Origin: a virus | Taxonomy: Duplodnaviria; Caudoviricetes | IMG/VR virus record: IMGVR_UViG_3300012942_000049 | Location: 1-62,079 of that record | Direction: 5' to 3' (one strand) | Length of the DNA stretch: 62,079 nt | Shown here: positions 2,864 through 32,021 of the stretch, one piece after another | Position numbering within the stretch: the stretch's first letter is position 1 | Layout of the letters: every line of letters starts with the position of its first letter | The notes under the pieces: generated by a model | What the model saw: only the letters and a program-made list of their open reading frames with translations | Databases searched by the model: none | Told to the model about the DNA's origin: nothing | Translations under genes and position numbers: made by a program

Positions 2864-3055
2864 ATGACATTGGCAGAACTATTGAGTAAACTTGAAGAGG
2901 CTCAACTTAGGTTGCCTGACTTCAATCCTGAAGATATTCGAGTCAGAGTAATGGATGCTGACAATGGTTATTGTTATGACCTTAACCTTGGTGGGCTTCA
3001 GACTGAATCTTCACCTGACACTGCCATCATCTGGCTTACAGTGAGTGAAGCATGA
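2864..3055 (+). CDS. Hypothetical protein
   Basis: RBS; ATGA overlap with next gene. Confidence 0.6.
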   Translation: MTLAELLSKLEEAQLRLPDFNPEDIRVRVMDADNGYCYDLNLGGLQTESSPDTAIIWLTVSEA

Positions 3056-6342: not shown

Positions 6343-6779
6343 GAATTACAAGAGATGACATGCTTATGGAGGTGGCATTAGTTGTCGCAAAACGAGGAAC
6401 CTGTAGTAGACTCCAAGTTGGTGCAGTTATATCTCGAGATGGAAGAATCATTACGACAGGTTACAATGGAGCTCCATCAGGCCTCCCCCATTGTGACCAC
6501 CGTTTCGATGGACCCGAGGCTGGGGGATGCGAGATCGCAGAACATGCTGAGAGAAATGCAGTCGCATTTGCGGCAAAGTATGGACTCGCTCTCGACAATG
6601 CGGAAGTCCATTGCACCCATGCGCCTTGTCTCGCCTGTAGTAGAACCCTTGTCAATTCAGGCATCACCCGCGTTAGTTATGCCATACCCTATCGATTGAC
6701 TGCTGGTGTGGAATTGCTTGAAACTGCTGGAGTCGAAGTGTTGCAACTAAGTTTGCCCAATGGTAGAATGCTATGGTGA
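6339..6779 (+). CDS. dCMP deaminase
   Basis: TGYNG, HAERNA, PCLAC zinc motifs. Confidence 0.92.
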   Translation: MRITRDDMLMEVALVVAKRGTCSRLQVGAVISRDGRIITTGYNGAPSGLPHCDHRFDGPEAGGCEIAEHAERNAVAFAAKYGLALDNAEVHCTHAPCLACSRTLVNSGITRVSYAIPYRLTAGVELLETAGVEVLQLSLPNGRMLW

Positions 6780-19705: not shown

Positions 19706-20106
19706 AGCTCCAGTTTCGCGTGCTTGTTACCGGGTCTCGCACTTGGCCCGATGAAGAGCTTATCCGCCGCACGATCAGCGCATTCTATGGCATGCTGCAA
19801 AAGGTGCTGGACGATGATATCGAACCTGTTCTAGTTCATGGTACTGCCCAAGGTGCCGACCAAATGGCCGCGGCAGCATGGATTGCCGAGGGTGGCTCAG
19901 TTGAAGCCCACCCTGCAGAGTGGGAAACCTATGGCAAGCAAGCCGGCTATGTACGAAATGCCGAAATGGTTGCTGCCGGCACTAATAAACAGCCACAAAT
20001 CTGTTTCGCTTTTATCCACAATGGCTCCCGGGGCGCCACAATGTGTGCCAACCTTGCCGAAAAGGCTGGTATTAGGACCTACCGCATCACGGCAGGAAGC
20101 CAGTAA
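19702..20106 (+). CDS. SLOG superfamily (YspA/DUF2493-like) protein
   Basis: VLVTGSR, VHGTAQGAD, AGYVRN, SRGA. Confidence 0.85.
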   Translation: MKLQFRVLVTGSRTWPDEELIRRTISAFYGMLQKVLDDDIEPVLVHGTAQGADQMAAAAWIAEGGSVEAHPAEWETYGKQAGYVRNAEMVAAGTNKQPQICFAFIHNGSRGATMCANLAEKAGIRTYRITAGSQ

Positions 20107-20116
20107 GGAGCCCACC

Positions 20117-20350
20117 ATGGCTAAGCACGACACCCTATATGTTATCACCGCCACAAAGACCATTCACACCTTTACCAATGGTCACCTCAAGGCCAACCAT
20201 GCCAGTGAGGAAGTTGTAGTCTTTAACAATGCCGAACTCACCCAGATTATTGCCAACCTACTCACCAACAATGGCTATCATCCCGTCGATGTGGCTATCC
20301 AAACCGCCAAGGGGTCACTGCCCTGGGCCCGACCAGTCACAAAAGTCTGA
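20117..20350 (+). CDS. Hypothetical protein
   Basis: AAGGAG RBS before ATG 20117. Confidence 0.6.
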   Translation: MAKHDTLYVITATKTIHTFTNGHLKANHASEEVVVFNNAELTQIIANLLTNNGYHPVDVAIQTAKGSLPWARPVTKV

Positions 20351-20515
20351 CGAGGCTATCGCCCATCTCTCTCGCGCGGGCCTGCGCGTTAGTCTTTGAG
20401 AGGGGAATTCTATTCTATATATAGTTAGAAGAATTCACCCTCATAGAGTAAGAGAAGATTGACAGTTTACGTATAGATTTATAGAATCTTTATAGATTAC
20501 TTTATAGAAAGGGCT

Positions 20516-21040
20516 ATGATGGATAGCAAAAAGGCCTATGAGATTCTACAAACCTATCGGGCTGAATCTCCATGCATATGGGGACTACTTCGAGGTAACC
20601 AAACAACAGCTGCAATTGCCAAACTTACTCTGATTACTCCTAGCAGAGTGGCTGAAGAACTTGATAAAGATGATTCAGTAATTAGTACCGGGGATAATAC
20701 TTGGGGCTTTGATTCAGACCATGAAGATTATGAGTTTCTTATCGAACTCAAACGGTTTTCTAAACAACTGTACTTCAAATTTGTACAATGGGAAGCACAG
20801 AATCCTGCTAATGGAATCGTAAAGTATACACCTAAGCAGGAGATGGTTCTTGGGCTATTGGCCGAACTTGGTCAACCTTTTACTACACTTGAAGCAGCAC
20901 AAGTTCAAGGCTTTAGTAAGTCAGGTTATACTAAACCTCAGCTAATGGCCTTGGTTAGAAAAGGGGCTCTCAAAATGATTCCAAACACTCGACCCCAGCT
21001 CTGGCAATTGGTTCCGCGTAAGTATGGGGAGAAAGACTAG
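20516..21040 (+). CDS. Putative tandem winged-helix DNA-binding protein
   Basis: Two HTH-like segments; own promoter TTGACA(20459)-17-TAGAAT. Confidence 0.55.
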   Translation: MMDSKKAYEILQTYRAESPCIWGLLRGNQTTAAIAKLTLITPSRVAEELDKDDSVISTGDNTWGFDSDHEDYEFLIELKRFSKQLYFKFVQWEAQNPANGIVKYTPKQEMVLGLLAELGQPFTTLEAAQVQGFSKSGYTKPQLMALVRKGALKMIPNTRPQLWQLVPRKYGEKD

Positions 21041-21200
21041 GGCTGAAGGTAGGACTATGGCCTGCGGCTGGGAGGAGGGCTAAGGCCATAACTACCAATA
21101 CACATATTCGTCCGGGGTTAGCGCATTTCGCTCGCTCCCGCTTCGCGGGCTCGCAAAACACACTCCCAACAAATGAGGCAATGATAGAGATGGGGAAGTA

Positions 21201-21440
21201 ATGGCTGAGACTGAAAGTAAGGCTGAGATAGAACTCGAAGAGCTCGAAGAGCTCGGAGAACCGGGATCTGAAAGGGGGGCGAGAGTGATTAACTGGGACG
21301 GGTTCTTTGATGCTTGCAATGAGTTGGATCAGCAGCTATTGGCTAGAGCTGAGAAGGCTCAGCAGGAGATTATCGAGGTTGATAGGCTTAGGACACGATT
21401 GGCTGAGATTAGAGTGAATGCCAGAAAGCATAGATTTTAG
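21201..21440 (+). CDS. Hypothetical coiled-coil protein
   Basis: ORF with RBS-like GGGGA. Confidence 0.5.
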   Translation: MAETESKAEIELEELEELGEPGSERGARVINWDGFFDACNELDQQLLARAEKAQQEIIEVDRLRTRLAEIRVNARKHRF

Positions 21441-21790
21441 GAGTCAAGCTAGAAAGCTTGGATGGAATAGAGTGAAGAGCCGGAGAAATCGGCTTGGAGA
21501 GGGGGATCCAGAAGTCCGGGAACAATGACTCGTGGGACCGGGAATCATTTCTTTAGGACTCTATACTACGTTCGGGGTTTGAGTTTAAACCAAGTCTCCG
21601 TAGACACTTTGCGATTATCTGATGTCGCCGCAAATCATCGTGTTTGGAACAATCTCGTCCGTGTCTCAATTATTTCTAACGTGCCGAGCTCCGACGGGCT
21701 CATAATTAAGAGTGTCTCAAACTTTTAGAAATTAAACCCTGACAGTTTCCTGCGAGTTTCCTCCAAAAGTTATTAACATTTTAATAACCC

Positions 21791-21828
21791 TGTTGATAAC
21801 TTATGCACATGTTGATAACTTATGCACA
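21791..21828. repeat. Tandem 19-bp repeat TGTTGATAACTTATGCACA x2 made of DnaA-box-like 9-mers
   Basis: Exact duplication; TTATGCACA fits TTATNCACA. Confidence 0.7.
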
Positions 21829-22001
21829 GGGCTCAAAAGCTCTCAGGAAGCGTCTCAGGGCGTCGACCCTCGCTCGGCATGCTGGCATACGCTATGGCTC
21901 CGTTACGGCGTCAGCAAGCGCTTTCCGGACACGATTGATCACAAGTTAAAACACAGTTATAGGGCATATACAGAAGCATATACCCTAAACTGTTACCAGC
22001 A

Positions 22002-22250
22002 TTAGAGACCAATTCCTCCTCGAGATGTTTTGAGAACTGGGTAAACCGCATTGTATGCAGAAACCATTTGCTCAATGAGTTTCTTTGCTTCTGCTATTTC
22101 CAATTCGAATTCCACAGTTTCCCCATTGGTCATTTCGATTTGGAATGCGATGTGTGGAATTGACCCTCGCGCCTCACTAAAAAGAGCACGAGAAGCAATT
22201 GCGCGATTGACGATATGACGAGTGTCATATCTCTTTCTCCATTTGCTCAT
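22002..22250 (-). CDS. Hypothetical protein
   Basis: ATG overlaps upstream stop. Confidence 0.6.
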   Translation of the reverse strand: MSKWRKRYDTRHIVNRAIASRALFSEARGSIPHIAFQIEMTNGETVEFELEIAEAKKLIEQMVSAYNAVYPVLKTSRGGIGL

Positions 22251-22513
22251 TTGTAGTCGCTTTCCATATTCACGAGAATCCATCGAATAAGATCCCATTT
22301 GTTCGCCACTACTTCACCTTCTTTCTTGAAAGTTTCAACTCCAAGATGAATCTCAAGAAAAGCATGGAGAATCAATTCCCCTTTGTTTTCGAGTTCTTCA
22401 TCAGAAACTTCGTTATTGAAGAATGAATCATCAGAGAATTCACTCATTGCCATATCGTCCAATTGCTCAATGAGCGAATCACTGAGTTTCAATAGCGCAT
22501 GTTGATTGATCAT
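22247..22513 (-). CDS. Acidic hypothetical protein, predicted leaderless
   Basis: TTGACT...TAGAAT-6nt-ATG on minus strand. Confidence 0.65.
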   Translation of the reverse strand: MINQHALLKLSDSLIEQLDDMAMSEFSDDSFFNNEVSDEELENKGELILHAFLEIHLGVETFKKEGEVVANKWDLIRWILVNMESDYK

Positions 22514-22756
22514 GATGCAATTCTATCACTACTGCGTGATAAGTCAAGGCAATTTGATTGACTTCATGATCAATATATGCTCGCGCAAATACCACGTTTT
22601 GAGGGCAGTGTCAAGGTATGTTGCGAGGGCGAACATAACGATGTCGTTATAAAAAACTTGCGTCATTGCCTTGCGCGATGCCTCATGCATGATAGTATTT
22701 ATATATCGATCAACTGATCGACAATCAAAAACCGATTCACACAAGGAGTGATTCAA

Positions 22757-23020
22757 ATGGCAACCATCACCGTCTCGGAGCTCGCAACCGAACTGGGCAC
22801 CGACCCCCGCACGACTCGCAAGTTCCTTCGCTCGATCACCGATGCCGATGAGCAGCCCGGCAAGGGGGGTCGCTGGAGCATCGAGAAGAAGTCGGTGCGA
22901 TCGATCAAGTCGAAGTTCGCGCACTACACCGAAGAGCTCGAGGCGAAGCGCGCCGCCAACGACGACGCCCCCGACGCTGAAGAGGTCGACGAGGTCGAGG
23001 TGCCCGACACCGACGCCTGA
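22757..23020 (+). CDS. Small HTH DNA-binding protein with acidic tail
   Basis: AAGGAG RBS; LATELGTDPRTTRKFLRS...GGRWSI; terminator hairpin ~23032-23059. Confidence 0.75.
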   Translation: MATITVSELATELGTDPRTTRKFLRSITDADEQPGKGGRWSIEKKSVRSIKSKFAHYTEELEAKRAANDDAPDAEEVDEVEVPDTDA

Positions 23021-23267
23021 TCTACCACACTCTGCTCCGAATCGCAAGGTTCGGGGCAGGGTTGTGTGTTAAAAGTTAATCAATTTGGCACTGGCACCCT
23101 CAAACCCACTATAGCGTGAGAAGCCCTGAGAGCGTTCCTGGCGCGAGTTGGGGGCGGGGCGCAATGCTAGCATACGCCGTGACACTCCCCAGGGCGCCAA
23201 ACACACCCCCTCAAACTGGGGGGTGAGTTGCCTTAGAGAACGGGGTCGACAGTGGTATGATTGAATC

Positions 23268-23429
23268 ATGAACAACAACGACAAGGCGACCATCGCGAAG
23301 GAAATCAACCTCCGCATTCGCGCTCGCTATGAGGGATTGAAGTTCACGCCGATTGAGCAACCCGCCAACCGCGCCAAGAATGCATCGCGAGGCAAGCCCG
23401 CTCCGCGCAAGAACCGCACCATTCTCTGA
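23268..23429 (+). CDS. Small basic protein (53 aa), predicted leaderless
   Basis: TGGTATGAT-6nt-ATG; MNNNDKATIAKEINLRIRARY...; not in ORF track. Confidence 0.6.
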   Translation: MNNNDKATIAKEINLRIRARYEGLKFTPIEQPANRAKNASRGKPAPRKNRTIL

Positions 23430-23438
23430 GGGGATATC

Positions 23439-23759
23439 ATGAACCGCTTGCAGGAAAACCTGACTGCCGTCGCTGGAGGGGCATGCATGCTTCTCGCCAT
23501 CGCCGGAACCGCAATTGCTCCCCATGTGACTGTGATCGACATGCAAGATCATGCATTGCAAGTTGGTTGGGGTCATCTCACCGCTTCCCTGGTGATCGAC
23601 GGAAGCAACTCTTTCATCGCCGATTGCACGCTCGATGAACTGATCAGCGCTCCCGAAACATGCCACACCACGCTTCGCCCTACCACACTTGAGGGATTGA
23701 AGCAAGGACCGATCATCACGCACTCCGTGCCCCTGTTTTGGGGGAACGGGGTTGCATGA
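23439..23759 (+). CDS. Hypothetical secreted/membrane protein
   Basis: GAGGGG RBS; N-terminal hydrophobic stretch. Confidence 0.55.
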   Translation: MNRLQENLTAVAGGACMLLAIAGTAIAPHVTVIDMQDHALQVGWGHLTASLVIDGSNSFIADCTLDELISAPETCHTTLRPTTLEGLKQGPIITHSVPLFWGNGVA

Positions 23760-23818
23760 TCGCGACTCACGCGGTAGAATTGAAGCATCACCAACTACAA
23801 CACTAAGGAGTTGAAATA

Positions 23819-24001
23819 ATGGCCATCACTATCCACGACCTCCACCTCATGCACGGGCTGCGCGAGATTCAGGAAGTCAGCAAGGCAATCCTCGGGGAGA
23901 GCAAGGAGAACGATGAAGTGATCCGACTGCTCGCCAAGGTTGAGAATCTGCTGGTCTCATCGCCCGAGGCGATCGAAGAGTACGAGGCGATGACAGCATG
24001 A
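23819..24001 (+). CDS. Hypothetical protein
   Basis: AAGGAG RBS; upstream promoter with TAGAAT. Confidence 0.65.
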   Translation: MAITIHDLHLMHGLREIQEVSKAILGESKENDEVIRLLAKVENLLVSSPEAIEEYEAMTA

Positions 24002-24084
24002 TCGCCATAGTGGGCCTGATCTTTTGCGCACTGGTCGGGTCATGGATCGCCTGGTATATCGCCAGCTGGTTTATCAAGGAGTGA
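23998..24084 (+). CDS. 28-aa single-TM peptide
   Basis: MIAIVGLIFCALVGSWIAWYIASWFIKE; ATGA overlap; followed by terminator 24087-24111. Confidence 0.55.
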   Translation: MIAIVGLIFCALVGSWIAWYIASWFIKE

Positions 24085-24240
24085 CCAAGGGCCCCAGAAA
24101 TGGGGCTTTTTGGCGTCTTAGCGAGCGTCTCGCGCAATCGAAGGTGTGGAGGTATGCTAGCATAGGCAGTGACGCTTACACCCTTAAAGACGCTACAAAG
24201 CGCCTTTAGACTTGCTTCGGCTACGTGGTAAAATGGAAGC

Positions 24241-24477
24241 ATGAACGAAAAACTGATCATCATGACCTGCCCCTACTGCCACTGGAGCGCTTCTCATGTT
24301 GAGAGCGACTCCGAACGAAAGAACCGCTTGATCGGAAAGCTCATCGCTCATCTCGAGCTCGAGAAGGATGAAGTCGAGCACCAGTACGTATGCCTTCAGT
24401 GCGACAACGGGACGATGAATGAGACCCAGGCTCGCAACCACATGAGGGTTGAGGGCCACGAAGTTGAAGAAGTTTAG
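24241..24477 (+). CDS. Double C2H2-like zinc-finger protein, predicted leaderless
   Basis: CPYC..H and CLQC...H...H; TAAAAT-6nt-ATG. Confidence 0.65.
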   Translation: MNEKLIIMTCPYCHWSASHVESDSERKNRLIGKLIAHLELEKDEVEHQYVCLQCDNGTMNETQARNHMRVEGHEVEEV

Positions 24478-24489
24478 GGGGTGAGACTG

Positions 24490-24606
24490 ATGACTGACAC
24501 TGAGACTCGAACTGAAGAAGAGGAACGCGAACGCGAACGGCTTGCTTATGCCGCCGCCTATCGCCAGATGGAGCTCGATGATATGGGGGTATACGAAGAG
24601 CCTTGA
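24490..24606 (+). CDS. Small acidic protein (38 aa)
   Basis: GGGGGTG RBS; followed by terminator CCCCGAC-TTCA-GTCGGGG. Confidence 0.5.
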   Translation: MTDTETRTEEEERERERLAYAAAYRQMELDDMGVYEEP

Positions 24607-24694
24607 CCTAGGACCCCGACTTCAGTCGGGGCTCTTTGGCGTGTGTAAAAGCTCGAGCCTTGACATTGATTTGACAAGGTGGTAGGGTCGAGGC

Positions 24695-25015
24695 ATGACT
24701 ACATACAAAGAAACCTACCACGAATCACTTGCGAGAAGCAAGGCGAAACAAGCCGACAAGTTCGAGAAGACCATGATCAAGAAGATCGCTCGGGCTATGG
24801 CAAAGACGCCGCTCTCGAGTGATGTCATCATCATCAGAGTGGGCCTGCAGGCAGAACTCAGTTGGCTCCTCGGTCATGATTGGGAATTGATCACCTCGAC
24901 TATGCCTCAAGTCTCAGGCACTGCCGGACTTCCCCGGTATATCTTGAAGCGCAACAGAGCATGGGTGAAGTACCAAATAGACCTTGACGCATGGCAGCGC
25001 TCTCAGGTAAAATAG
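24695..25015 (+). CDS. Hypothetical protein, predicted leaderless
   Basis: TTGACA(24660)-17-TAGGGT-6nt-ATG. Confidence 0.65.
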   Translation: MTTYKETYHESLARSKAKQADKFEKTMIKKIARAMAKTPLSSDVIIIRVGLQAELSWLLGHDWELITSTMPQVSGTAGLPRYILKRNRAWVKYQIDLDAWQRSQVK

Positions 25016-25019
25016 AAGC

Positions 25020-25145
25020 ATGACACCTTCACCTGATGAGATCCACACCCTCGGGCAAGCATTTGCCTTCCTGGGATTCGGAGTTGCTGTTTGGGCCCTT
25101 GTCATCGGGCTCTGGATTCGAGACCGCCGAAGGTCGAGGCGATAG
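25020..25145 (+). CDS. 41-aa membrane peptide, predicted leaderless
   Basis: TTGACG...TAAAAT-6nt-ATG; TM helix then RDRRRSRR; terminator 25152-25178. Confidence 0.6.
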   Translation: MTPSPDEIHTLGQAFAFLGFGVAVWALVIGLWIRDRRRSRR

Positions 25146-25184
25146 TCTCTAAGGGCCCTCCTTAATCGGGGGGCTTTTGCCTGT

Positions 25185-25790
25185 GTCATATCAGGGGGAT
25201 CATGGGGAATGTGGGGTTCATATGCCGGGGTGTCATTGCATGATGCTTCATGGTCAGATCATTGGCATGATTAGGGAATCATGGGTTGATCATCGAGCAT
25301 CGGCATATGGCAAGGAGCAAGGTGATAGAAGTGGGTAATAGTAGTCATATATGAGGCGGGGTTATATGGCGGGGTCATATATAGGGGGTTCATATCAGGG
25401 GGTATGGGTATGCATGGTGATGGCATTGGATATGGATGCATGATGCTTCCTTCTGCAATTGATCATGCAATCATCATGCGTATGTCATGCGCGGGTATCA
25501 ATGGGGGTATGATGGAGGGCAGCGGGGAATAGGTATAGGTATGAGCATGGCATTATAGGGTAGGGTATGGGGGTATGGCATATGGGAACAAGATAGTGAT
25601 GCCTCTATGCATATGTCTCTTCCCATATCCCTATGCATATCCCCTATGCCTAGTGCTATGCCTCTATCTATCCTCTCTTCTCCTCTTCCTTTCTTCTTTC
25701 TTCTTTGTTTAAATTGATTTAAAAAATAATTTTTCTTTGTTGATCATTCCTTGATTCTCTGATATACACTGAACCCCCCCGTGTCATATC
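25185..25790 (+). repeat. Non-coding strand-skewed block: G-tract/TCATAT repeats, then pyrimidine and AT tracts
   Basis: No ORF; multiple GGGG(G) runs and about six T(C/T)ATAT units. Confidence 0.7.
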
Positions 25791-25934
25791 CGCGATAAAC
25801 CGCACCCGTCAATGTGAGACGGTTATACGTGCTGGGTTTGGGCTCTTTTTGGGATTTCTCTACCACGTACTAATAAGCCCGGACAGGCAGTCAGAATTAG
25901 AGCTTCACTTCAGTGAATCAGAGCTTCACTTGCC

Positions 25935-25964
25935 TTGACACCGCCTCATAGGTTATGCGATGAT
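25935..25964 (+). promoter_or_regulatory. Promoter TTGACA-18-GATGAT upstream of the ncRNA candidate
   Basis: Perfect -35, weaker -10; preceded by AGAGCTTCACTT x2. Confidence 0.55.
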
Positions 25965-25970
25965 TGACCC

Positions 25971-26552
25971 ATCGCCGCTAATGATGACAATTACATAGAG
26001 AACTAGGTCGAATTGCCCCTTGGTAATGAGTTCGTGGGTAAGGGTTCAGTCTAAACTGAAACGAATGGCAACCTACTGCGACTAACCTATACGCTGACCG
26101 AGCAGCTCTCCACACAAACCGTGCCCATCGGGTGGTGCGCGTGAACCCTCAGTGGAGAAAAGGCCTTAAGCTCGGTGCGGCAGTCAGGGGATTTGGCAGA
26201 CGTGCTAAAGTCTTAAAACCGGTTAGTTGGCTTCTTGCCAATCATGATACCTACCCTGATTGCGTGGTCTCAAGCGAAGCCCGCGGCTAGAGGGTAAAAT
26301 TGCTCCAAACCTAAGCTTGAGATATTTCTGGAGACGGGGCTCCTAAACTCTTGCCGGAGCAAGATCAAAGTTTAGGCTAGCAACTCACGAGGAGTCGGTG
26401 AGCTTCAACACCGTCATCAAACGAGGACTAATGGCCCCACCGGGTCTTGAAAAAGAAGAGTTGGGTCAATCAGAGTATTCCTTAGGGTAACGCTAACTGG
26501 TTGATTTTGGACAACTCTGCAGGGCTAGCTACCCACCGGTGGGGTCATTTTG
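25971..26552 (+). ncRNA. Candidate large structured non-coding RNA (~580 nt)
   Basis: No ORF of 60 aa or more; more than 12 nested helices with G-U pairs plus crossing pairings; bounded by two promoters. Confidence 0.7.
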
Positions 26553-26609
26553 TAGCCATAGACACACTTGGCTATTGACACTGAGCCACGGCATTGATAG
26601 CATAGCTAT

Positions 26610-26795
26610 ATGACCACGATCACAGTCACTCACTATGGGCCTAACCAGGTACCTGACCCCGACCACTCAACTTTTATCTCAGTGAGAACCAATTATGGGG
26701 AACACCAGTCAGTGTCACTTCAAACTGATGATGAGGTCAAAGAGCTAATCGCCAAACTTCAGCAAGCCCTAGAAAAAGGAGACCTTAATGGCTGA
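26610..26795 (+). CDS. Hypothetical protein, predicted leaderless
   Basis: TTGACA(26575)-17-TAGCAT-6nt-ATG. Confidence 0.65.
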   Translation: MTTITVTHYGPNQVPDPDHSTFISVRTNYGEHQSVSLQTDDEVKELIAKLQQALEKGDLNG

Positions 26796-27132
26796 GCATA
26801 TCCACCCCGATGACCTGCCCGGGCTCATTCCTAACGCTCCATTGATGGACTTGCCCCAACCTGGTGTGGAGGATAAGCAACCGCCCATCGATACCGGCTC
26901 TGGCATTCCTGAGACACTTGAGGAGATGCAAAAGAAAGCGGATGAGTTTGCTGCTAAAGGTCTGAATGGCAAGTGTTTTATTTGCCACCATGGGGTCTTT
27001 TATGCTCCTGGCTATGACCACGCTGAACTCGAGGGACAGATTTACTCTGAGGCCGGCGTAGATGAGTTCAAGATCAGTCAATCCTGTGAGTTTTGCTTTG
27101 ACAAGCTAGCTGAAACATGGGATGGGGAATGA
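26788..27132 (+). CDS. Zinc-binding hypothetical protein
   Basis: AAGGAG RBS; CFIC...CEFCFD. Confidence 0.65.
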   Translation: MAEHIHPDDLPGLIPNAPLMDLPQPGVEDKQPPIDTGSGIPETLEEMQKKADEFAAKGLNGKCFICHHGVFYAPGYDHAELEGQIYSEAGVDEFKISQSCEFCFDKLAETWDGE

Positions 27133-27173
27133 ACTAGCCTTTGTCCTACTAGAGAAAGTGAGTTTGAGAGTTT

Positions 27174-27341
27174 ATGAACGCTGATGAGCTTAAGCCTATG
27201 GTAACACCTGAATGGACTGCTCAATTGCTCCAGGTGAATGCCAATCTCACAGATCAGTTGCAACGCATTCGTGAGTATGTCAGTGACAACCCTGGCAGCA
27301 TTGACGCTGACACCATTCTTCAGATGATCGATATAGAGTAG
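27174..27341 (+). CDS. Hypothetical protein (55 aa)
   Basis: MNADELKPMVTPEW...; fills gap in operon. Confidence 0.5.
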   Translation: MNADELKPMVTPEWTAQLLQVNANLTDQLQRIREYVSDNPGSIDADTILQMIDIE

Positions 27342-27349
27342 AGAGACTA

Positions 27350-27700
27350 ATGGCAACCCAGTTTTGTGATGTCTGTTATAGAGAGATTAACCTGATTGAC
27401 TCCCCAGGCGGCTCATGGTGGAGTCATGTAATACACCCCCAAGATGATCATGATGCGATTCTGAGAGATTTTTGGGACGCTGAGGTATTCAATGAGAGGG
27501 GTAAGTGGAAATACTCAGTCAAGATCAACATGATGAAGCCAGACCAATGGGTGGATTATCTTTTCCCCATCAACGAGGGTATGGCTTCCACACCTCCTGA
27601 GGTACGAGGGGTTAGTTTCACCCGGGTGCCAGAGAATTGGTCCTTGGTAATGGTAGAGTCACCCTGGGGATACCCCATTAAAGTCGAAGGAACAGCATGA
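27350..27700 (+). CDS. Hypothetical protein
   Basis: CDVC...WWSH; operon context. Confidence 0.6.
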   Translation: MATQFCDVCYREINLIDSPGGSWWSHVIHPQDDHDAILRDFWDAEVFNERGKWKYSVKINMMKPDQWVDYLFPINEGMASTPPEVRGVSFTRVPENWSLVMVESPWGYPIKVEGTA

Positions 27701-27822
27701 TAGCTAAGTGTAACTTATGTGATGACTCAGAGGGTAAAGCTTTCCGCGTACCCTGGGACAGGATAGGTAAAGAGCTTATGGATGCCCATCTGCAGGAAAA
27801 ACATCCGAAGTTGAAACGATGA
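27697..27822 (+). CDS. Small C2H2-like zinc-finger peptide (41 aa)
   Basis: CNLC...HLQEKH; ATGA overlaps on both sides. Confidence 0.55.
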   Translation: MIAKCNLCDDSEGKAFRVPWDRIGKELMDAHLQEKHPKLKR

Positions 27823-28478
27823 ATAACAAAGAATTGATCGAAGAGCTACGCAACTATCAGAGTGCATATGAGTTTCAGTCTGGCCGTACCGAAGATGGGT
27901 ATGTCAGATGGCCAGACATGGCCGAACGCGCGGAGCAATATAAGCGTTACGCGGATGAGTTGGAGGCTGCACAGGAGCGCATCACTGAACTCGAAGCCGA
28001 ACGTGACGAATGGCGTCGGAAGTTCACCGACTGTCACCCGATCCACCTGGATGGCGTGCAGCGAGCGTTCAGGGCCGAAGCTGAGCGTGACACTCTCGCC
28101 ACCCGAGTGAAAGAACTTGAAATGGACCTCCAGTTCAAGCGCCGTTCCAACGGCAGACTGGGGGAACGCTATGTGGAGGCCGAGCGTGAGCGCCAGTTAG
28201 CGCTCGCCACACTCGCCGCTATAACAGAGAAGGTAAGTTACTACATGCACCCTGACTCGGGCGCCGTAGATGACGAAGTGCTGGCCGATTTTGCCGCCAT
28301 TCTCGATGCCTCTCCCGTCAAAAAGAAAGAGCACCAAGAAGAGTTTGGTGTCCGACCTTTAGATGAAGAATGGCATCCTGGGGATGCTTGCGGATCTTGC
28401 GGAAGTACTAAAACCTATCTAGACGATGACATGATCGCATGCTGTCGTTCTTGCGGAAGGAGTGATGCTGATGAGTGA
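27819..28478 (+). CDS. Coiled-coil hypothetical protein with C-terminal zinc ribbon
   Basis: Heptad repeats; CGSCG...CRSCG. Confidence 0.65.
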   Translation: MNNKELIEELRNYQSAYEFQSGRTEDGYVRWPDMAERAEQYKRYADELEAAQERITELEAERDEWRRKFTDCHPIHLDGVQRAFRAEAERDTLATRVKELEMDLQFKRRSNGRLGERYVEAERERQLALATLAAITEKVSYYMHPDSGAVDDEVLADFAAILDASPVKKKEHQEEFGVRPLDEEWHPGDACGSCGSTKTYLDDDMIACCRSCGRSDADE

Positions 28479-28662
28479 CCTGACCGAAACCCTGGCCGAG
28501 ATACATAAGCACATTGATAGTGATCCGACCTATTATGAACGTAAGATGTTGTCCGCCATAGAGAGTGTGCTGACGCTGTGCGACGAGTATGAACAGCCAC
28601 GACACACCCAGGAGCCATTGACTCGCCGCATTCGCAAGGCTCTGACTGATGCGTTGGCTTAG
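28471..28662 (+). CDS. Hypothetical protein
   Basis: AAGGAG RBS. Confidence 0.55.
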   Translation: MSDLTETLAEIHKHIDSDPTYYERKMLSAIESVLTLCDEYEQPRHTQEPLTRRIRKALTDALA

Positions 28663-28699
28663 CCTTGACGCGGTTTATTAGATGCTATAGCATTGCATC

Positions 28700-29059
28700 A
28701 TGACCGAATCGCCCAAGCCAAAGCCACCAAATAATCCTCCACACCCGCCGGCAGCATTTTTCGCCGGTACTAAGATGTGGGAGCGATATCGGGGTCTAAT
28801 CGCTGCTTCGGAATGGGTCGGTTCTTATGAGATTGAGGATCCCGAGGGGAAGCAATACGCCTCAATCACGATCAGCGCTGCATTCAATCGCGCAAAGTCG
28901 CTCTCTAATGCGCTTAAAATGTTCCCTGAAGCGCCTGACGATATGCTTATTGCATATGACATGTTGACTAAAGGGCTTGCGCGCATGGAGCGCAAAATCG
29001 CTCGACTTTATCGGGAGAAGATTGCGACACTAAAGACAGTTACTGTGAGGAGTAAATAA
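28700..29059 (+). CDS. Hypothetical protein, predicted leaderless
   Basis: TTGACG(28665)-17-TAGCAT-6nt-ATG. Confidence 0.65.
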   Translation: MTESPKPKPPNNPPHPPAAFFAGTKMWERYRGLIAASEWVGSYEIEDPEGKQYASITISAAFNRAKSLSNALKMFPEAPDDMLIAYDMLTKGLARMERKIARLYREKIATLKTVTVRSK

Positions 29060-29061
29060 CA

Positions 29062-29325
29062 ATGGCAATTGAGGTTTCGAACTGGGATGTATTGATTACA
29101 CCACAAGGTCGAAAGCCCTACAAAAACCGACGAGAGCTTGAGAAAGCTTGGAATGAGAACGCTGACTTCGTTCATGGACGAACTGGAGTATGGCTTTCTC
29201 AGCGGGAAATCAAACAATATGCTCCTCAGGTTGAGCGGGTAATTATCCGCTACGGTGAAAGACTCGAGAAGACTTTTACCGCATGGGTTAGAGAAGGAAC
29301 TAAGGGTGAGCAACCAAGTAGTTAA
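29062..29325 (+). CDS. Hypothetical protein
   Basis: GAGGAG RBS. Confidence 0.6.
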   Translation: MAIEVSNWDVLITPQGRKPYKNRRELEKAWNENADFVHGRTGVWLSQREIKQYAPQVERVIIRYGERLEKTFTAWVREGTKGEQPSS

Positions 29326-29527
29326 TGCCACAATCAGAGTTCGAGCCATCCCTCTGGGGGCTCTTGAGCAGATTATGGATCTGATTGCTGAGGAGGCTAA
29401 TCGGGTATCTTGTGACTTTACACCCACGCAAGAACAATTGCTGGTTGGTGTGGATAAGAAACCTCAGCTATGGTCTCGCGATAAGCCTTTGAGTTCGGTT
29501 CGTGGTCATGGTAAGATGGAGAAATGA
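29306..29527 (+). CDS. Hypothetical protein
   Basis: GTG start after AAGGA. Confidence 0.5.
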   Translation: MSNQVVNATIRVRAIPLGALEQIMDLIAEEANRVSCDFTPTQEQLLVGVDKKPQLWSRDKPLSSVRGHGKMEK

Positions 29528-29679
29528 TCCCCCAAAGTACTGAACAGCAGAACTGGCAAGTCCAGACCCTTGATGGCGTATGCATGAGTGATCATTCCAC
29601 ACAAGAGGAAGCTCAGGCCGAGCGCGAACGACTTTCAAAAGATTACCAGGAATACTTTAGAGTAAGGAGAACCGCATAA
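29524..29679 (+). CDS. Small hypothetical protein (51 aa)
   Basis: ATGA and TAATG overlaps with neighbours. Confidence 0.5.
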   Translation: MIPQSTEQQNWQVQTLDGVCMSDHSTQEEAQAERERLSKDYQEYFRVRRTA

Positions 29680-30062
29680 TGGCCAGTTTTCTAGAAGATG
29701 CCAAGGGTAAAACTGTTGTAGAAGTCGCTGCACGTATTTCCCATGACTATGACATCGAGTTTCATAAGGTACTAACTGGTATTCTCAGGGTTACTGATCT
29801 TTGGAATCAGTACGAGGATCTTAGAAACTTCAAAGAGATTGTCGATACACTGCAAATTAAGGTAGTTGTAAGACAACCTCCCGAGTTTGATAGTCCTGAA
29901 TGGGCTACTCCTGAAGCCTATATAGGACCGCTTGTGGGTGTGGTGTTTGAGGACACCCTCTTTAAGCCATCTCAGCTGGTTTTTAATTCTGATGGTTATG
30001 CCACCATACCTCTTCGCTCCTTTATTGCTCAAGTATCGAGGGCGGAGAACGAAAAGCCTTGA
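29679..30062 (+). CDS. Hypothetical protein
   Basis: AAGGAG RBS. Confidence 0.6.
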   Translation: MASFLEDAKGKTVVEVAARISHDYDIEFHKVLTGILRVTDLWNQYEDLRNFKEIVDTLQIKVVVRQPPEFDSPEWATPEAYIGPLVGVVFEDTLFKPSQLVFNSDGYATIPLRSFIAQVSRAENEKP

Positions 30063-30137
30063 CAAGGTTTATCATGCGCCTATAGCATGATGATGCACCA
30101 CCTAAAATGCCAAGGAAACCGAAGAAAGGGATACCAA

Positions 30138-31622
30138 GTGAATCTCAAAAAGCTAGTTGCTCTTGCGGGAGTAACAGCCGTAGTTGCCACCGGGGCGGTG
30201 ATGTTCGGGGCAATGCCAGCATCGGCACACACACCTACTGTGACTGCGGACTGTTCGACTGGGTTGACAGTTAACCTAGTGGACTATTCAACGAATGGTG
30301 GTCATCCTCAGGATAACGAGGTGACTGTAACCATCGATGGTACTCAGGTCGATGACCAGCAGTTCGGTGCCTCGTTCAACCAGACGTACCCGCTGGGCGA
30401 CCAGTATGCTGCTCATACCTACGAGGTGAAGGTCAATGCCTGGGATGGCAAGCAGTACGACCTCGACAAGAGCGGCTCACTCGATGCCTGCAAGACTGAC
30501 CCTGCTCAGCCGCCAGCACAGGTAACTGATACTGATTGGGTCGATGGAACTGCAGTTTGCGGTGACACTACCATCGCTCAGACTCGTACTGAGACCACGA
30601 CGCCTTATGTTTTGGTTGATCACGAGTGGGTGCTCGACAGTGACCATGCAACTTCGGTTACTCAGACTCAGACTAGGCCGCTTAGCGATGCCGAACTGGC
30701 TGCACTTCAGCAGAGCTGCGCACCGCCCATTCCAGAACCTCAGCAATGCACCTCAACTGGTAGCTGGTATAGTGAAGACACCGCTCCCATTCAGGGTGAA
30801 GATGGTCTGGACTTTAAGGGTCAGGGTACCGCAGTCGATTACTACCAGCCGGTAACGGGAAATCTGCAGGGGTTGGGTAACCAGTCCATCACCTTTGCGA
30901 ATGTTTCGGGGTATCAGCCCAGTTTCACCATCGTTTTCAACCGCGAGGGTAATTCTGGATATGCCAACTTGGTTGCTGAGTGGTACATGAATGGTGGCTC
31001 GCCTGACACGGCTGGAACCTTCAGCATCGATGCGACCACCAAGTTCTGGACGAACAAGATTGCCAATCCTGCACCAGGCAGCCAGTCTGACCCGCAGCCC
31101 TTGAGCTTCTTCGTTCAGGAGTATCCTAACAATGAGCTCATCTCATTGGGGGCTCACCTCGGGAGTGCCCAGGGTGATGATACTCACAGTGCAGTGACTG
31201 CGATCAGTGGGTGCGCTTCTGCCAACTTCGTTCCGACGAAGCCGGCTGATGAAGTTACCGTGAAGACGACACCATCGACTCAGTGCACCCCCAGTGGTGG
31301 TACTGAGACCGATACGACCGTGACGACGACTACCCCTTATATTTGGGATGCCGACAACGCGAAGTACGTCCTCGACACTGACAACGCCAAGGCAGTTACT
31401 ACGATCAGTACTCGCGCCGCAACCGCTGACGAGTGCCCCGTAACGACTACCACTTCCACACCGCCAGCAGCTATCTCGGTCAACAGCAGTCCTACTGGAC
31501 TTGCTGACACTGGGAGCAACATCGATGCTTCGATGATCGCTGGGGGCATTATGCTCGCAGGGCTGGGCTTCGGTATTGGGCTGATCATCTTCAGCATCCG
31601 CCGCCGGCACGCGATGAAGTAA
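30138..31622 (+). CDS. Secreted, sortase-anchored cell-surface protein (LAxTG)
   Basis: Signal peptide ending ASA; Thr-rich body; LADTG + TM helix + RRRH tail; own promoter and terminator (31640-31662). Confidence 0.8.
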   Translation: MNLKKLVALAGVTAVVATGAVMFGAMPASAHTPTVTADCSTGLTVNLVDYSTNGGHPQDNEVTVTIDGTQVDDQQFGASFNQTYPLGDQYAAHTYEVKVNAWDGKQYDLDKSGSLDACKTDPAQPPAQVTDTDWVDGTAVCGDTTIAQTRTETTTPYVLVDHEWVLDSDHATSVTQTQTRPLSDAELAALQQSCAPPIPEPQQCTSTGSWYSEDTAPIQGEDGLDFKGQGTAVDYYQPVTGNLQGLGNQSITFANVSGYQPSFTIVFNREGNSGYANLVAEWYMNGGSPDTAGTFSIDATTKFWTNKIANPAPGSQSDPQPLSFFVQEYPNNELISLGAHLGSAQGDDTHSAVTAISGCASANFVPTKPADEVTVKTTPSTQCTPSGGTETDTTVTTTTPYIWDADNAKYVLDTDNAKAVTTISTRAATADECPVTTTTSTPPAAISVNSSPTGLADTGSNIDASMIAGGIMLAGLGFGIGLIIFSIRRRHAMK

Positions 31623-31717
31623 CACCTAGCACAATTGGTGGGGCCCCGAGAAATCGGGGTCCTACTGCTGTGTATCAAATTGTTGACAGGGGCAGCATGA
31701 TGCTATAGCATTGAAGT

Positions 31718-31861
31718 ATGCCGAATCATCTTAAAGCTAAAGTGACATACCGACCTCGCCGTCGCCGAAGGATGTGGAAGTCATACTGGAAGAAGTTCTT
31801 TAGGGACTTCAAGTATGCCTTCATGGCTACTTTCAAGGAGGTCTTTGGTGAGCGAGACTGA
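31718..31861 (+). CDS. 47-aa Arg/aromatic-rich peptide, predicted leaderless
   Basis: TTGACA(31683)-17-TAGCAT-6nt-ATG; MPNHLKAKVTYRPRRRRRMW... Confidence 0.55.
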   Translation: MPNHLKAKVTYRPRRRRRMWKSYWKKFFRDFKYAFMATFKEVFGERD

Positions 31862-32021
31862 CCCACTGGGCAAAGTGCCAAGGTATGTCCTTTTCAGGGG
31901 GAGGAAAGCTCGCGTGATAGGATATGAGAACGGTCGCTTCGAAATTCTGGACTACCAAGACCAGAAAAGACTAGTCTCCCGGTCTCAAATCACTTTCATA
32001 CCTCCTAGGAAGACTAAATGA
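31848..32021 (+). CDS. Small SH3-like hypothetical protein
   Basis: GTG after AAGGAGG. Confidence 0.55.
   Translation: MSETDPLGKVPRYVLFRGRKARVIGYENGRFEILDYQDQKRLVSRSQITFIPPRKTK

What the first reader, a model, noticed from the sequence alone, without database searches (positions are those of the whole stretch)
25971..26552. Candidate ~580-nt large, ornate, pseudoknotted non-coding RNA in its own transcription unit
Seen: an ORF-free stretch in an otherwise tightly packed genome, starting just after a TTGACA promoter (25935) and ending before the next promoter (26575). It is densely self-complementary. A long-range closing helix TGATGAC(25982-88)/GTCATCA(26413-19) encloses: TAGG..TTGCC(26004-17)/GGCAACCTA(26067-75); TTCGT/ACGAA; GACTAACC(26080-87)/GGTTAGTT(26221-28); ACCGAGC/GCTCGGT; TCTCCAC/GTGGAGA; TTTGGCA-GACG-TGCTAAA; TACCCT/AGGGTA; CTCCA/TGGAG; CCTAAACT..TCTTGC-CGGA-GCAAGA..AGTTTAGG; CGGTG/CACCG. 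A 3' domain is closed by AATGGCCCCACCGG(26430-43)/CCGGTGGGGTCATT(26536-49), with inner AGAGTTG/CAACTCT and GTCAATCAG/CTGGTTGAT. Two perfect 8-bp crossing pairings exist: TCTCAAGC(26268-75)/GCTTGAGA(26315-22), a loop-loop contact, and AGGGTTCA(26041-48)/TGAACCCT(26142-49). Several mismatches read as G-U pairs on the + strand, favouring an RNA structure. Known: large phage-associated ncRNAs of unknown function (ROOL, GOLLD) are of this size class. Inference: a member of such a class, or a new class, in an actinobacterial phage. I see no tRNA, tmRNA, RNase P or group II domain V hallmarks.
Basis: partly seen in the sequence, partly recalled or inferred. Interest (0 to 1): 0.9.

Follow-up and report, generated by a model that had tools for sequence, protein, structure and literature searches.

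The report
Portable pseudoknot RNA module in actinophages

Summary
Its self-complementarity is modest. The MFE z-score is -2.46 against shuffles, but 38 of 212 windows of the same phage fold as well or better.

One part is clearly real. Window 26004-26089 is a ~86-nt module (P1, P2, P4 and a pseudoknot). It recurs at 73-87% identity in 15 Streptomyces Gilsonvirus phages and three soil-phage lineages, always once per genome and on the sense strand. Ten of its 25 pairs carry compensatory changes (0 of 500 shuffles reach this). No Rfam family matches, and it is not ROOL, GOLLD, tRNA, tmRNA or an intron.

The module is portable. It replaces a hairpin inside a ~340-nt tRNA-like ncRNA in Gilsonvirus phages. 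In other lineages it follows a tail-chaperone gene or precedes small genes.

The 3' domain (26426-26556, z -4.87) is a stable branched hairpin ending in a U-run, probably the terminator. The middle 330 nt is an orphan.

Best reading: a promoter-to-terminator RNA cassette built around a new autonomous RNA module, most likely a cis-acting processing or stability element. This mechanism is inferred, not shown.

The parts
25894..25931 (+). Two 17-bp direct repeats (GAATnAGAGCTTCACTT) 21 bp apart, abutting the -35 hexamer. Candidate regulator-binding sites for the promoter (inferred).
   Evidence: the repeat finder family D4. These are the only two matches in the 62-kb window at up to 3 mismatches.
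25935..25964 (+). Sigma-70-like promoter: TTGACA, 18-nt spacer, GATGAT, with TG before the -10. The predicted start is near 25971 (inferred).
   Evidence: Consensus scan, 10 of 12 matches. The Gilsonvirus ncRNA unit likewise begins at a TTGACA site.
26004..26089 (+). Conserved portable pseudoknotted RNA module.
- P1: 26004-26008 with 26085-26089.
- J1/2: CGAA.
- P2: 26013-26017 with 26067-26071.
- P3 (weak): 26018-26021 with 26040-26043.
- Pseudoknot: 5' strand 26032-26037 (or 26029-26038) with 3' strand 26076-26081 (or 26072-26083).
- P4 hairpin: 26045-26049 with 26056-26060.
- J4/2: ACGAAU.
   Evidence: blastn to 15 Streptomyces phages; alignment A1; pair counts; covariance model R1 scores 104.3 bits, E 4.7e-27.
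26092..26425 (+). Middle region with no detectable relatives. MFE predicts four self-contained domains (26092-26179, 26180-26262, 26264-26325, 26326-26392) and a T-arm-like hairpin, CGGTG/CACCG, at 26396-26413. The structure is predicted only.
   Evidence: z -2.29; sub-domain z from -1.7 to -2.8; no similarity to any module-bearing locus, to phages or to plasmids.
25982..25988 (+). 5' strand of the predicted long-range closing helix, TGATGAC, pairing with GTCATCA at 26413-26419.
   Evidence: Present in both the MFE and the centroid structure. A perfect 7-mer pairing of this kind is within chance for this stretch and is untestable by covariation.
26430..26552 (+). 3' domain. A 14-bp closing stem (one G-U pair) encloses three hairpins and is followed by a U-run (TCATTTTG). 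Probably a branched intrinsic terminator or 3' stabiliser.
   Evidence: Inverted repeat I1, 93% complementary; z -4.87, 0 of 200 shuffles as low; terminator-like site 26529-26542 with tail GGTCATTTTG.
26575..26603 (+). Next promoter-like site (TTGACA, 17 nt, TAGCAT) in front of the near-leaderless ORF 26610-26795.
   Evidence: The ORF is homologous to Triscuit gp13 (tblastn E 1.2e-9).

Best explanation
Window 25935-26552 is a self-contained, non-coding expression cassette (promoter, RNA, terminator-like 3' domain) in a soil actinophage.

Its one demonstrably functional part is an ~86-nt autonomously folding RNA module at 26004-26089. The module has a closing helix P1, an inner helix P2, a variable hairpin P4, and a pseudoknot. 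The pseudoknot joins the loop inside P2 to the strand between P2 and P1. Invariant junctions (CGAA, GGUAAUGAGU, ACGAAU, CUA) hold the fold together.

The module is a new RNA family. It is carried once per genome by five actinophage lineages and can be plugged into different transcripts.

I take it to act in cis on the RNA that carries it, as a processing or stability element. It would either cleave itself or set a boundary for host ribonucleases, defining the ends of the flanking RNA segments.

In this window it would define or protect the 5' end of a ~450-nt lineage-specific RNA whose 3' end is the branched terminator domain.

Shown: the fold, its conservation, its strand, its portability, its single-copy status, and its absence from Rfam. 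Inferred: transcription from 25935, termination near 26552, any cleavage or nuclease blocking, and that the middle 330 nt has a function.
For: Conservation:
- Only 26004-26091 of window 25700-26700 matches other phages. It matches 15 of 15 hits, all Streptomyces Gilsonvirus, at 79.8-85.2% identity, in unannotated DNA.
- Further true copies lie in IMG/VR and metagenome contigs: L101=L159, L117=L137, and the L133/L164/L165/L006/L115 group.

Structure (10 distinct sequences, alignment A1):
- 97.2% of 247 cells pair.
- 10 of 25 pairs change on both sides. 0 of 500 shuffles reach any of the five measures.
- Slid controls pair only 32-52% of cells.
- P1, P2 and P4 are each 100% paired, with 2, 2 and 4 covarying pairs.
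- P2 changes G-C to A-U in exactly Forrest and L082, and U-A to C-G in L133.
- Both pseudoknot registers are 100% paired.

RNA strand:
- G-U pairs are invariant (66-120) or serve as intermediates (L082, L101).
- The module is co-oriented with the flanking genes in 5 of 5 lineages.

Autonomy and portability:
- In five of the six aligned Gilsonvirus sequences the module sits in a slot that Gilson fills with the hairpin GAACGAAAGTTC. Gilson carries the module instead 3' of its tRNA-like element, in front of an extra gene.
- In L117 it starts 17 nt after a stop codon and lies upstream of a promoter-like sequence. In L101 and the L133 group it lies downstream of a Phage_TAC_17 tail-chaperone gene.
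- P1 varies from 5 to 10 bp, P4 from 5 bp to a longer arm, and L133 has an extra hairpin.

Copy number:
- Model R1 finds one strong match in the window. The next best scores 17.7 bits and lies inside an ORF.
- It finds one strong match in each of Gilson, G001, G002 (a complete 55.6-kb genome) and G003.

Cassette:
- Promoter, unique tandem repeats and terminator-like 3' domain.
- The closest cultured relatives, Shrew and Triscuit, lack the module in the 21.6 and 17.1 kb searched.

Long ORF-free hosts elsewhere:
- A ~340-nt conserved Gilsonvirus unit with compensatory hairpin and tRNA-like swaps.
- A ~650-nt conserved gap in the L133 group.
Against: - No expression data exist. The single public run holding the DNA is a DNA run, so transcription, ends and any cleavage are unobserved.
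- The sample is shallow: five lineages and 10 distinct sequences, six of them Gilsonvirus. The many invariant positions may partly reflect recent horizontal transfer rather than constraint.
- P3 is weak: 76.7% paired, and broken in Belfort/Comrade and in the Forrest group.
- The pseudoknot has at most one pair with a two-sided change, seen in one sequence, and its register is ambiguous.
- RNAalifold prefers a nested alternative without P2.
- Nothing ties the module mechanistically to cleavage or nuclease blocking. A trans-acting role, binding a protein or small ligand, fits the contexts equally well.
- For the remaining 460 nt there is no comparative support at all. The region's folding energy is ordinary for this genome (38 of 212 windows as good). 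The module itself has z -0.28 and the Gilsonvirus RNA z -0.80, so energy z-scores discriminate poorly in either direction.
Confidence: 0.4

Rival explanations
1. The whole 25971-26552 stretch is a single large, ornate, multi-domain ncRNA of a new class, functionally akin to ROOL or GOLLD. The conserved module is one peripheral domain, and the closing helix 25982/26413 plus the T-arm-like hairpin form a tRNA-like minihelix.
For: - It is ORF-free, with its own promoter and terminator-like end.
- MFE and centroid both keep the closing helix and a modular set of domains. All sub-domains have negative z.
- Two other lineages embed the same module in long conserved ORF-free units: a ~340-nt unit with a tRNA-like element in Gilsonvirus and a ~650-nt gap in the L133 group.
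Against: - No relative of 26092-26552 was found, so there is no covariation.
- Self-complementarity is ordinary for this genome.
- No Rfam match, which includes ROOL, GOLLD and OLE.
- The three host RNAs share nothing but the module.
- The T-arm-like hairpin has an 8-nt loop and is not recognised by ARAGORN or by the tRNA and tmRNA models.
Confidence: 0.25
2. The module is a trans-acting or ligand-sensing aptamer. It would be either a decoy or binding site for a host or phage protein, or a riboswitch-like sensor of a small molecule, and not a processing element.
For: - The invariant junctions and pseudoknot strands, with all change confined to helices, are typical of a binding pocket.
- It is single-copy per genome.
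- In Gilson, and for the related-looking e1/e2 elements of L133, the fold sits 30-70 nt in front of a start codon.
- AUUGCC can pair alternatively with GGUAAU or with GGCAA, which could form a switch.
Against: - Downstream genes differ in every lineage or are absent.
- Five of the six aligned Gilsonvirus sequences carry it inside an ncRNA with no expression platform.
- In L117 it lies upstream of the next promoter-like sequence.
- The alternative pairing is broken in L133 while P2 is kept.
- No co-occurring protein was identified. No systematic search for one was made.
Confidence: 0.25
3. Apart from the module, the stretch is functionless spacer. It would be the debris of a gene disrupted when a module-carrying cassette was inserted, and its predicted structure would be chance.
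For: - Its folding energy and inverted-repeat density are within the range of the rest of the genome.
- It has no relatives.
- A short frame at 25851-25940 weakly resembles the start of Shrew gene 11, which continues for 147 aa in Shrew (tblastn E 9.8, not significant).
Against: - The 3' domain is far more stable than shuffles (z -4.87). It is placed exactly where a terminator is needed, before the next promoter.
- No remnant of a coding frame was found: the 52-aa ORF has no hits, and Shrew genes 11-13 give no significant tblastn match.
- Phage genomes rarely keep 460 nt of junk.
Confidence: 0.1

Closest known systems
ROOL, GOLLD and OLE: large ornate bacterial and phage ncRNAs. I saw the listing and abstract of PMC12286853; the rest is recalled.
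   Same: Several hundred nucleotides, ORF-free, phage-borne, with modular multi-stem predictions. In Gilsonvirus the host RNA of the module lies next to or includes a tRNA-like element. As I recall, GOLLD and ROOL loci often do too.
   Different: No covariance-model match at gathering score or at E<=10. The only conserved part is ~86 nt. There is no evidence that the 580 nt fold as one unit.
Small self-cleaving ribozymes scattered in phage intergenic regions: hammerhead, twister, pistol, hatchet, and HDV-like 'theta' ribozymes next to phage tRNAs (abstract of PMC10879173 seen).
   Same: Size (~60-130 nt). A pseudoknotted core with invariant junctions and a variable peripheral hairpin. Sense-strand intergenic positions that differ between phages. 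Proximity to tRNA-like genes in Gilsonvirus and to a tRNA in L101.
   Different: No match to any of these Rfam families. The order of the covariation-supported strands (P1, P2, PK5', P4, P2', PK3', P1') is not the HDV-like order, and no CUGAUGA...GAAA hammerhead core sits at the junctions (inspection of A1). Cleavage is untested.
Exoribonuclease-resistant RNAs (xrRNAs) of flaviviruses and plant viruses (recalled).
   Same: A compact three-way junction closed by a helix, with a pseudoknot to the 3' flank. An autonomous cis-acting fold that defines the end of a stable RNA.
   Different: No sequence or model similarity was tested or is known. The hosts are bacteria, and no nuclease-stalling data exist.
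tmRNA
   Same: In the window's MFE a 7-bp helix joins the 5' end to a strand directly after a T-arm-like hairpin and encloses ~420 nt with possible pseudoknots.
   Different: ARAGORN finds no tmRNA. There is no Rfam tmRNA match at E<=10. The third pair of the closing helix is A-U, not the G-U needed for alanylation (sequence). The hairpin loop is 8 nt.
Pseudoknotted riboswitch aptamers with three-way junctions, such as THF and SAM-type (recalled).
   Same: A helix-closed junction with a loop-to-3'-strand pseudoknot and invariant junction residues.
   Different: No Rfam match, no consistent downstream gene or expression platform, and it is embedded inside an ncRNA in Gilsonvirus.

Membership tests
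ROOL / GOLLD / OLE (Rfam large ornate RNAs) | Match to the family covariance model at or near its gathering score | tested here: not met
   0 matches at gathering score in the whole window. At E<=10 only snoRNA, miRNA and lncRNA noise far below cut-offs.
tRNA | Cloverleaf recognised by ARAGORN or the Rfam tRNA model | tested here: not met
   ARAGORN finds 0 genes in the window. There is no tRNA hit at E<=10 in 25700-26700.
tmRNA | tRNA-like domain with G3-U70, a T-arm with a 7-nt loop, and recognition by ARAGORN or the Rfam tmRNA models | tested here: not met
   Searches are negative. The closing helix TGATGAC/GTCATCA has A-U at pair 3, and the hairpin loop AGCTTCAA is 8 nt. A tag reading frame was not examined.
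Group I / group II introns, RNase P RNA | Match to Rfam models of the catalytic cores | tested here: not met
HDV-like (including theta) ribozymes | Nested double pseudoknot with strand order P1, P2, P3, P3', P1', P4, P4', P2' | tested here: not met
   The helices supported by covariation run P1, P2, (P3), PK5', (P3'), P4, P4', P2', PK3', P1'. No partner for the 5' strand lies between P2 and P4. No Rfam HDV-family hit. The theta consensus itself was not available as a model.
Hammerhead ribozyme | Three-way junction with CUGAUGA and GAAA cores at the junctions | tested here: not met
   The junction strands are CGAA and ACGAAU, and P2, P3 and P4 abut without these cores. No Rfam hit.
New family defined here (model R1) | P1, P2 and P4 helices plus a loop-to-3'-strand pseudoknot, with invariant CGAA, GGUAAUGAGU, ACGAAU and CCUACUGCGRCUAA segments | tested here: met
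   The window copy scores 104.3 bits, E 4.7e-27, over model positions 1-96. All 25 pairs of the P1/P2/P4/pseudoknot model and all 25 pairs of the model with P3 are standard in the window row. This is partly circular, because the window sequence is one of the 10 used to build R1.
Rho-independent terminator (3' domain) | Stable G+C-rich stem immediately followed by a U-run | tested here: inconclusive
   There is a 14-bp stem (z -4.87 for the domain) and a tail TCATTTTG. However, the stem encloses ~92 nt with three hairpins, and the U-run has only four U.

The most novel reading that the evidence does not exclude
The ~86-nt module is the core of a new class of catalytic or nuclease-defying RNA. 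It would be either a new self-cleaving ribozyme or a bacterial-virus counterpart of xrRNAs. Actinophages would exchange it as a plug-in, and long ORF-free 'RNA morons' have been assembled around it at least three times independently: this window's ~580-nt unit, the ~340-nt Gilsonvirus unit with its tRNA-like element, and the ~650-nt L133-group gap. On this reading the window's transcript is one example of a new family of large composite phage ncRNAs.
Probability: 0.2. Interest if true: 0.85.

Novelty: categorically new. Interest (0 to 1): 0.62.

Why it matters
Structured RNA motifs with covariation support and no assigned family are the raw material from which new ribozymes, riboswitches and RNA-protein systems have been found.

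This one is compact, pseudoknotted and has an invariant core. It is also visibly portable between unrelated actinophages and between different positions in a transcript, which argues for a self-sufficient biochemical activity.

Several carriers are cultured SEA-PHAGES Streptomyces phages (Gilson, Belfort, Comrade, Forrest), so the function can be tested directly. Natural 'experiments' already exist: in Gilson the usual slot holds a plain hairpin and the module sits elsewhere.

The work also flags an unannotated ~340-nt ncRNA with a swappable tRNA-like domain in 128-kb Streptomyces phages.

If the long host RNAs prove functional, they would extend the short list of large phage ncRNAs to actinophages.

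Tried and rejected
Known families: Rfam at gathering score on the whole window and at E<=10 on 25700-26700, 25990-26105 and 26380-26560 gave noise only. The Gilsonvirus loci gave only a sub-threshold tRNA hit in Forrest. The L133 gap gave noise. ARAGORN found nothing in the window.

Relatives of the whole region:
- Megablast of 20000-32000 against phages found no match.
- blastn of 26092-26560 against plasmids found no match.
- blastn and nhmmer against 14 module-bearing loci found only the module.
- Protein-anchored searches of IMG/VR with three neighbouring proteins found no relative.
- Shrew and Triscuit have large gaps at comparable places, but these are repeat zones unrelated to the RNA region.
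- No whole genome is held for the window.

Pattern scans:
- The genome-contig scan gave 25 stretches, none a true module. My hand estimate of chance hits is about 30.
- The metagenome scan gave 50 stretches, 5 of them true.
- The last IMG/VR scan gave 30 stretches. I passed 26 loci to R1 (23 new ones plus L207, L006 and L115), and only L006 and L115 matched.

Coding: the 52-aa ORF has no Pfam hit and no tblastn hit in phages at E<=1. Shrew genes 11-13 have no significant match in the window.

tmRNA, HDV-like and hammerhead readings were rejected; see the membership table.

An rRNA-mimic idea (GGCUAAC and GGUAAU resemble 16S 530-loop words, recalled) was dropped as untestable without typing sequence from memory.

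Expression: 'no RNA holder listed'. The only listed run is a soil DNA run that may be the source of the window.

Literature: four searches and passages of PMC10732093 gave nothing on this motif. No supplementary files were seen, and motif lists in the supplements of RNA-discovery papers could contain it.

Neighbouring proteins are ORFans in PHROGs, apart from an HTH protein.

Not done: structure prediction, complex prediction, the search for homologous proteins, the search of protein representatives and the atlas were not used. No systematic search was made for a protein that co-occurs with the module.
Full report
**What the window is.** The window is a 62-kb soil phage sequence with 48.8% G+C.
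- Its large terminase is 74% identical to that of Curtobacterium phage Shrew and 67% to Microbacterium phages Triscuit and Huwbert.
- No near-identical phage is in the phage collection.
- No whole genome is held for it.
- The one public run that holds the DNA is a soil DNA run.

**The observation.**
- The stretch 25971-26552 has no ORF above 52 aa, and all three forward frames are broken by many stops.
- The 52-aa ORF has no Pfam hit and no tblastn hit in 50,697 phage records.
- A TTGACA/GATGAT promoter-like site lies at 25935-25964 and a second, TTGACA/TAGCAT, at 26575-26603.
- Two 17-bp direct repeats abut the first -35 hexamer. They occur nowhere else in the window.

**The ORF-free zone is wider than reported.** From about 25190 to 25760 lies a repeat-rich, AT-rich zone. 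It is of the same kind as the 3896-4538 gap of Shrew. It holds the most structure-prone 582-nt window of the genome, 25318-25899.

**Is the self-complementarity more than chance?**
- Against dinucleotide shuffles the + strand folds at z -2.46, with 1 of 100 shuffles as low. The - strand folds at z -1.52.
- Perfect inverted 7-mers are about twice expectation (19 against 10.3; 10 of 300 shuffles reach this). Perfect 8-mers are not enriched (5 against 2.5; 46 of 300).
- Against the phage's own sequence the region is ordinary. 13 of 106 windows have as many 7-mers. After GC regression, 38 of 212 windows fold as well or better.
- The two 'crossing' 8-mers and the 7-bp closing helix are therefore individually within chance.
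- The 3' domain is the exception: z -4.87, with 0 of 200 shuffles as low.
- Energy z-scores are poor judges here in both directions. The one part proven by covariation has z -0.28, and the conserved Gilsonvirus RNA has z -0.80.

**The part that has relatives.**
- A sensitive blastn of 25700-26700 against all phage records hit only 26004-26091. The hits were 15 Streptomyces phages of the genus Gilsonvirus (~128 kb), at 79.8-85.2% identity, always in unannotated DNA.
- Pattern scans added three further lineages: L101 (=L159), L117 (=L137; a complete 55.6-kb genome), and the group L133/L164/L165/L006/L115.
- The tail-chaperone gene next to the module in L133 has its 184 matching phage records (all below 60% identity) mostly among Gordonia, Arthrobacter and Streptomyces phages. 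These are therefore actinophages too.
- A scan of one genome from each of 185,579 bacterial and archaeal species gave 25 pattern hits, none a true copy.
- A covariance model built from 10 distinct sequences finds one strong copy in the window (104 bits; the next best, 17.7 bits, lies inside an ORF). It finds one strong copy each in Gilson and three IMG/VR records. It finds none in the left arms of Shrew and Triscuit.

**The fold (alignment A1).**
- P1: window 26004-26008 with 26085-26089.
- P2: 26013-26017 with 26067-26071.
- P4: 26045-26049 with 26056-26060.
- All three helices are paired in 10 of 10 sequences. They have 2, 2 and 4 pairs changed on both sides.
- The P2 changes are telling. 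G-C becomes A-U in Forrest and L082 but not in their near-twin MeganTheeKilla. U-A becomes C-G in L133.
- The closing pair of P1 takes four forms: U-A, A-U, U-G and G-C.
- The loop inside P2 pairs with the strand between P2 and P1, which makes a pseudoknot. Two registers are each 100% compatible. One is 6 continuous pairs with one two-sided change. The other is 10 pairs with two bulges and only one-sided changes. They cannot yet be told apart.
- P3 is weak (76.7% paired).
- Over the whole model, 97.2% of cells pair. 10 of 25 pairs covary. 0 of 500 shuffles reach any measure. Slid controls pair only 32-52% of cells.
- RNAalifold offers a nested alternative in which AUUGC pairs with GGUAAU. It leaves the coupled P2 changes unexplained and is broken in L133.
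- Invariant and intermediate G-U pairs, and co-orientation with the flanking genes in all five lineages, show that the + strand RNA is the functional form.

- TTGCC/GGCAA is right.
- TAGG with the proximal CCTA fails at one pair in 6 of 10 sequences. The partner is the distal ACCTA.
- TTCGT/ACGAA fails at one pair in 8 of 10 sequences.
- The long-range partners proposed for GACTAACC and AGGGTTCA lie in sequence that no relative possesses.

**Portability.**
- In five of the six aligned Gilsonvirus sequences (Belfort, Comrade, Forrest, MeganTheeKilla, L082) the module sits about 75 nt into a conserved ~340-nt ORF-free unit. That unit starts at a TTGACA promoter and contains a tRNA-like element.
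- In Gilson the same slot holds a plain GAAA-capped hairpin. There the module lies 3' of the tRNA-like element, directly in front of an extra gene that the others lack.
- In L117 it begins 17 nt after a stop codon and lies upstream of a promoter-like sequence.
- In L101 and the L133 group it lies downstream of a Phage_TAC_17 tail-assembly-chaperone gene. In the L133 group it sits in the 3' half of a ~650-nt ORF-free gap that is as conserved as the coding flanks and shows compensatory changes of its own.
- The flanks of P1 share nothing between lineages. P1 length, P4 length and an extra hairpin in L133 vary freely.
- The module is therefore an autonomous unit that can be inserted wherever a hairpin is tolerated.

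**What it is not.**
- No Rfam family matches the window at gathering score or, beyond noise, at E<=10. The same holds for the Gilsonvirus units and the L133 gap. This excludes ROOL, GOLLD, OLE, introns, RNase P, the known ribozyme families and the known riboswitches as far as their models reach.
- ARAGORN finds no tRNA or tmRNA.
- The strand order of the supported helices is not that of HDV-like ribozymes, and the junctions lack the hammerhead core.
- Four literature searches turned up nothing on this motif. Supplementary motif lists could not be read.

**The rest of the region.**
- Bases 26092-26425 have no similarity to any module-bearing locus, phage record or plasmid. Three protein-anchored searches found no close relative of this phage in IMG/VR.
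- MFE predicts four self-contained domains and a T-arm-like hairpin stacked on the closing helix. This is prediction only.
- The 3' domain (26430-26552) is a 14-bp stem with one G-U pair. It encloses three hairpins and ends in a short U-run, just before the next promoter. I read it as a branched terminator or 3' stabiliser.

**Interpretation.**
- Confidence is about 0.9 that the module is a genuine structured RNA of a family not yet filed.
- Confidence is about 0.45 that the 580 nt are transcribed as one discrete functional RNA.
- The mechanism is inferred. The varied sense-strand positions are: inside an ncRNA next to a tRNA-like element, between a late gene and the next promoter, in front of small genes, and near the 5' end of an ORF-free transcript. 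These fit best a cis-acting element that sets RNA ends, by self-cleavage or by directing or blocking a host ribonuclease.
- A protein- or ligand-binding role is nearly as likely. A classical riboswitch is less likely, because there is no common downstream gene or expression platform.
- The stated confidence of 0.4 refers to this whole package, including the cis-processing reading.

**Verdict.**
It is a portable pseudoknotted RNA module, not the ROOL/GOLLD-like giant that was proposed.
- The 'large ornate RNA' remains an open possibility. It is made more plausible by two other lineages that wrap long conserved ORF-free sequence around the same module.

Noticed in passing
L002 636-985 (Streptomyces phage Belfort); also L003, L004, L005, L082 and L001 2190-2500: An unannotated ~340-nt ORF-free unit in Gilsonvirus phages. 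It starts at a TTGACA/TAAGGT promoter and is highly conserved (84% mean column identity). One hairpin is swapped with compensatory stem changes (TTATGG/CCATAA versus TTACGG/CCGTAA). Two alternative tRNA-like cassettes (66 or 77 nt, with compensatory acceptor stems) sit between invariant flanks. Some records call the cassette 'tRNA-OTHER'. ARAGORN calls only the Forrest form, with a 2-base 'anticodon'. No Rfam family matches.
   Followed up: partly
L133, minus strand: about 3018-3092 and 2678-2763 (elements e1 and e2); also L006, L115, L164, L165, L207: A second, related-looking pseudoknotted element: GAGGYCGAA...GGTAAGGACAGG...CCACCTGTC...CCTC. It sits 25-35 nt in front of start codons. A compensatory change (GACAGGT/ACCTGTC to GACAGAT/ATCTGTC) appears in L164. 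It shares the P1-CGAA-P2 and GGUAA layout with the module. It is rare in IMG/VR (3 loci).
   Followed up: partly
L133 minus strand, about 3660-2990 (oriented coordinates 6668-7345); L006, L115, L164, L165: A ~650-nt ORF-free gap after a Phage_TAC_17 gene. It is as conserved as the coding flanks, and in L165 it shows compensatory changes in a hairpin (CCTCGA/TCGAGG to CCTCGG/CCGAGG). It may be another long ncRNA or a structured 3' UTR hosting the module.
   Followed up: partly
window 25180-25760: A repeat-rich, AT-rich non-coding zone with several 12-19-nt direct repeat families such as GGGGTTCATAT.. and TCATATCAGGGGG. It resembles in kind the 3896-4538 gap of Curtobacterium phage Shrew. The 582-nt window 25318-25899 has the lowest GC-corrected folding energy of the genome. 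It may be an origin or a regulatory switch region.
   Followed up: partly
window 25851-25940: A short frame (29 codons, TTG start) whose first residues resemble the annotated start of Shrew gene 11. It ends in a stop that overlaps the -35 TTGACA. This may be a truncated gene left by insertion of the RNA cassette, or a conserved non-coding leader. The similarity is not significant (tblastn E 9.8).
   Followed up: partly
window 26788-27132: A 114-aa protein just downstream with CxxC-type motifs (CFICH, CEFC) and a sub-threshold Pfam hit to the endoribonuclease YbeY (E 0.006, 16.9 bits against a cut-off of 25). It has no PHROG.
   Followed up: no
L101 6073-6146 (minus strand): A tRNA-Phe with the unusual anticodon AAA, about 430 nt downstream of the module on the same strand.
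   Followed up: no
window 24660-24698 and 26575-26612: Promoter-like sites whose -10 hexamer lies only about 6 nt before the ATG, suggesting leaderless mRNAs for the flanking early genes.
   Followed up: no
window 2286-2352: A weak match to the module model (17.7 bits, E 0.019) inside the 511-aa ORF 1267-2802. Taken as noise.
   Followed up: no
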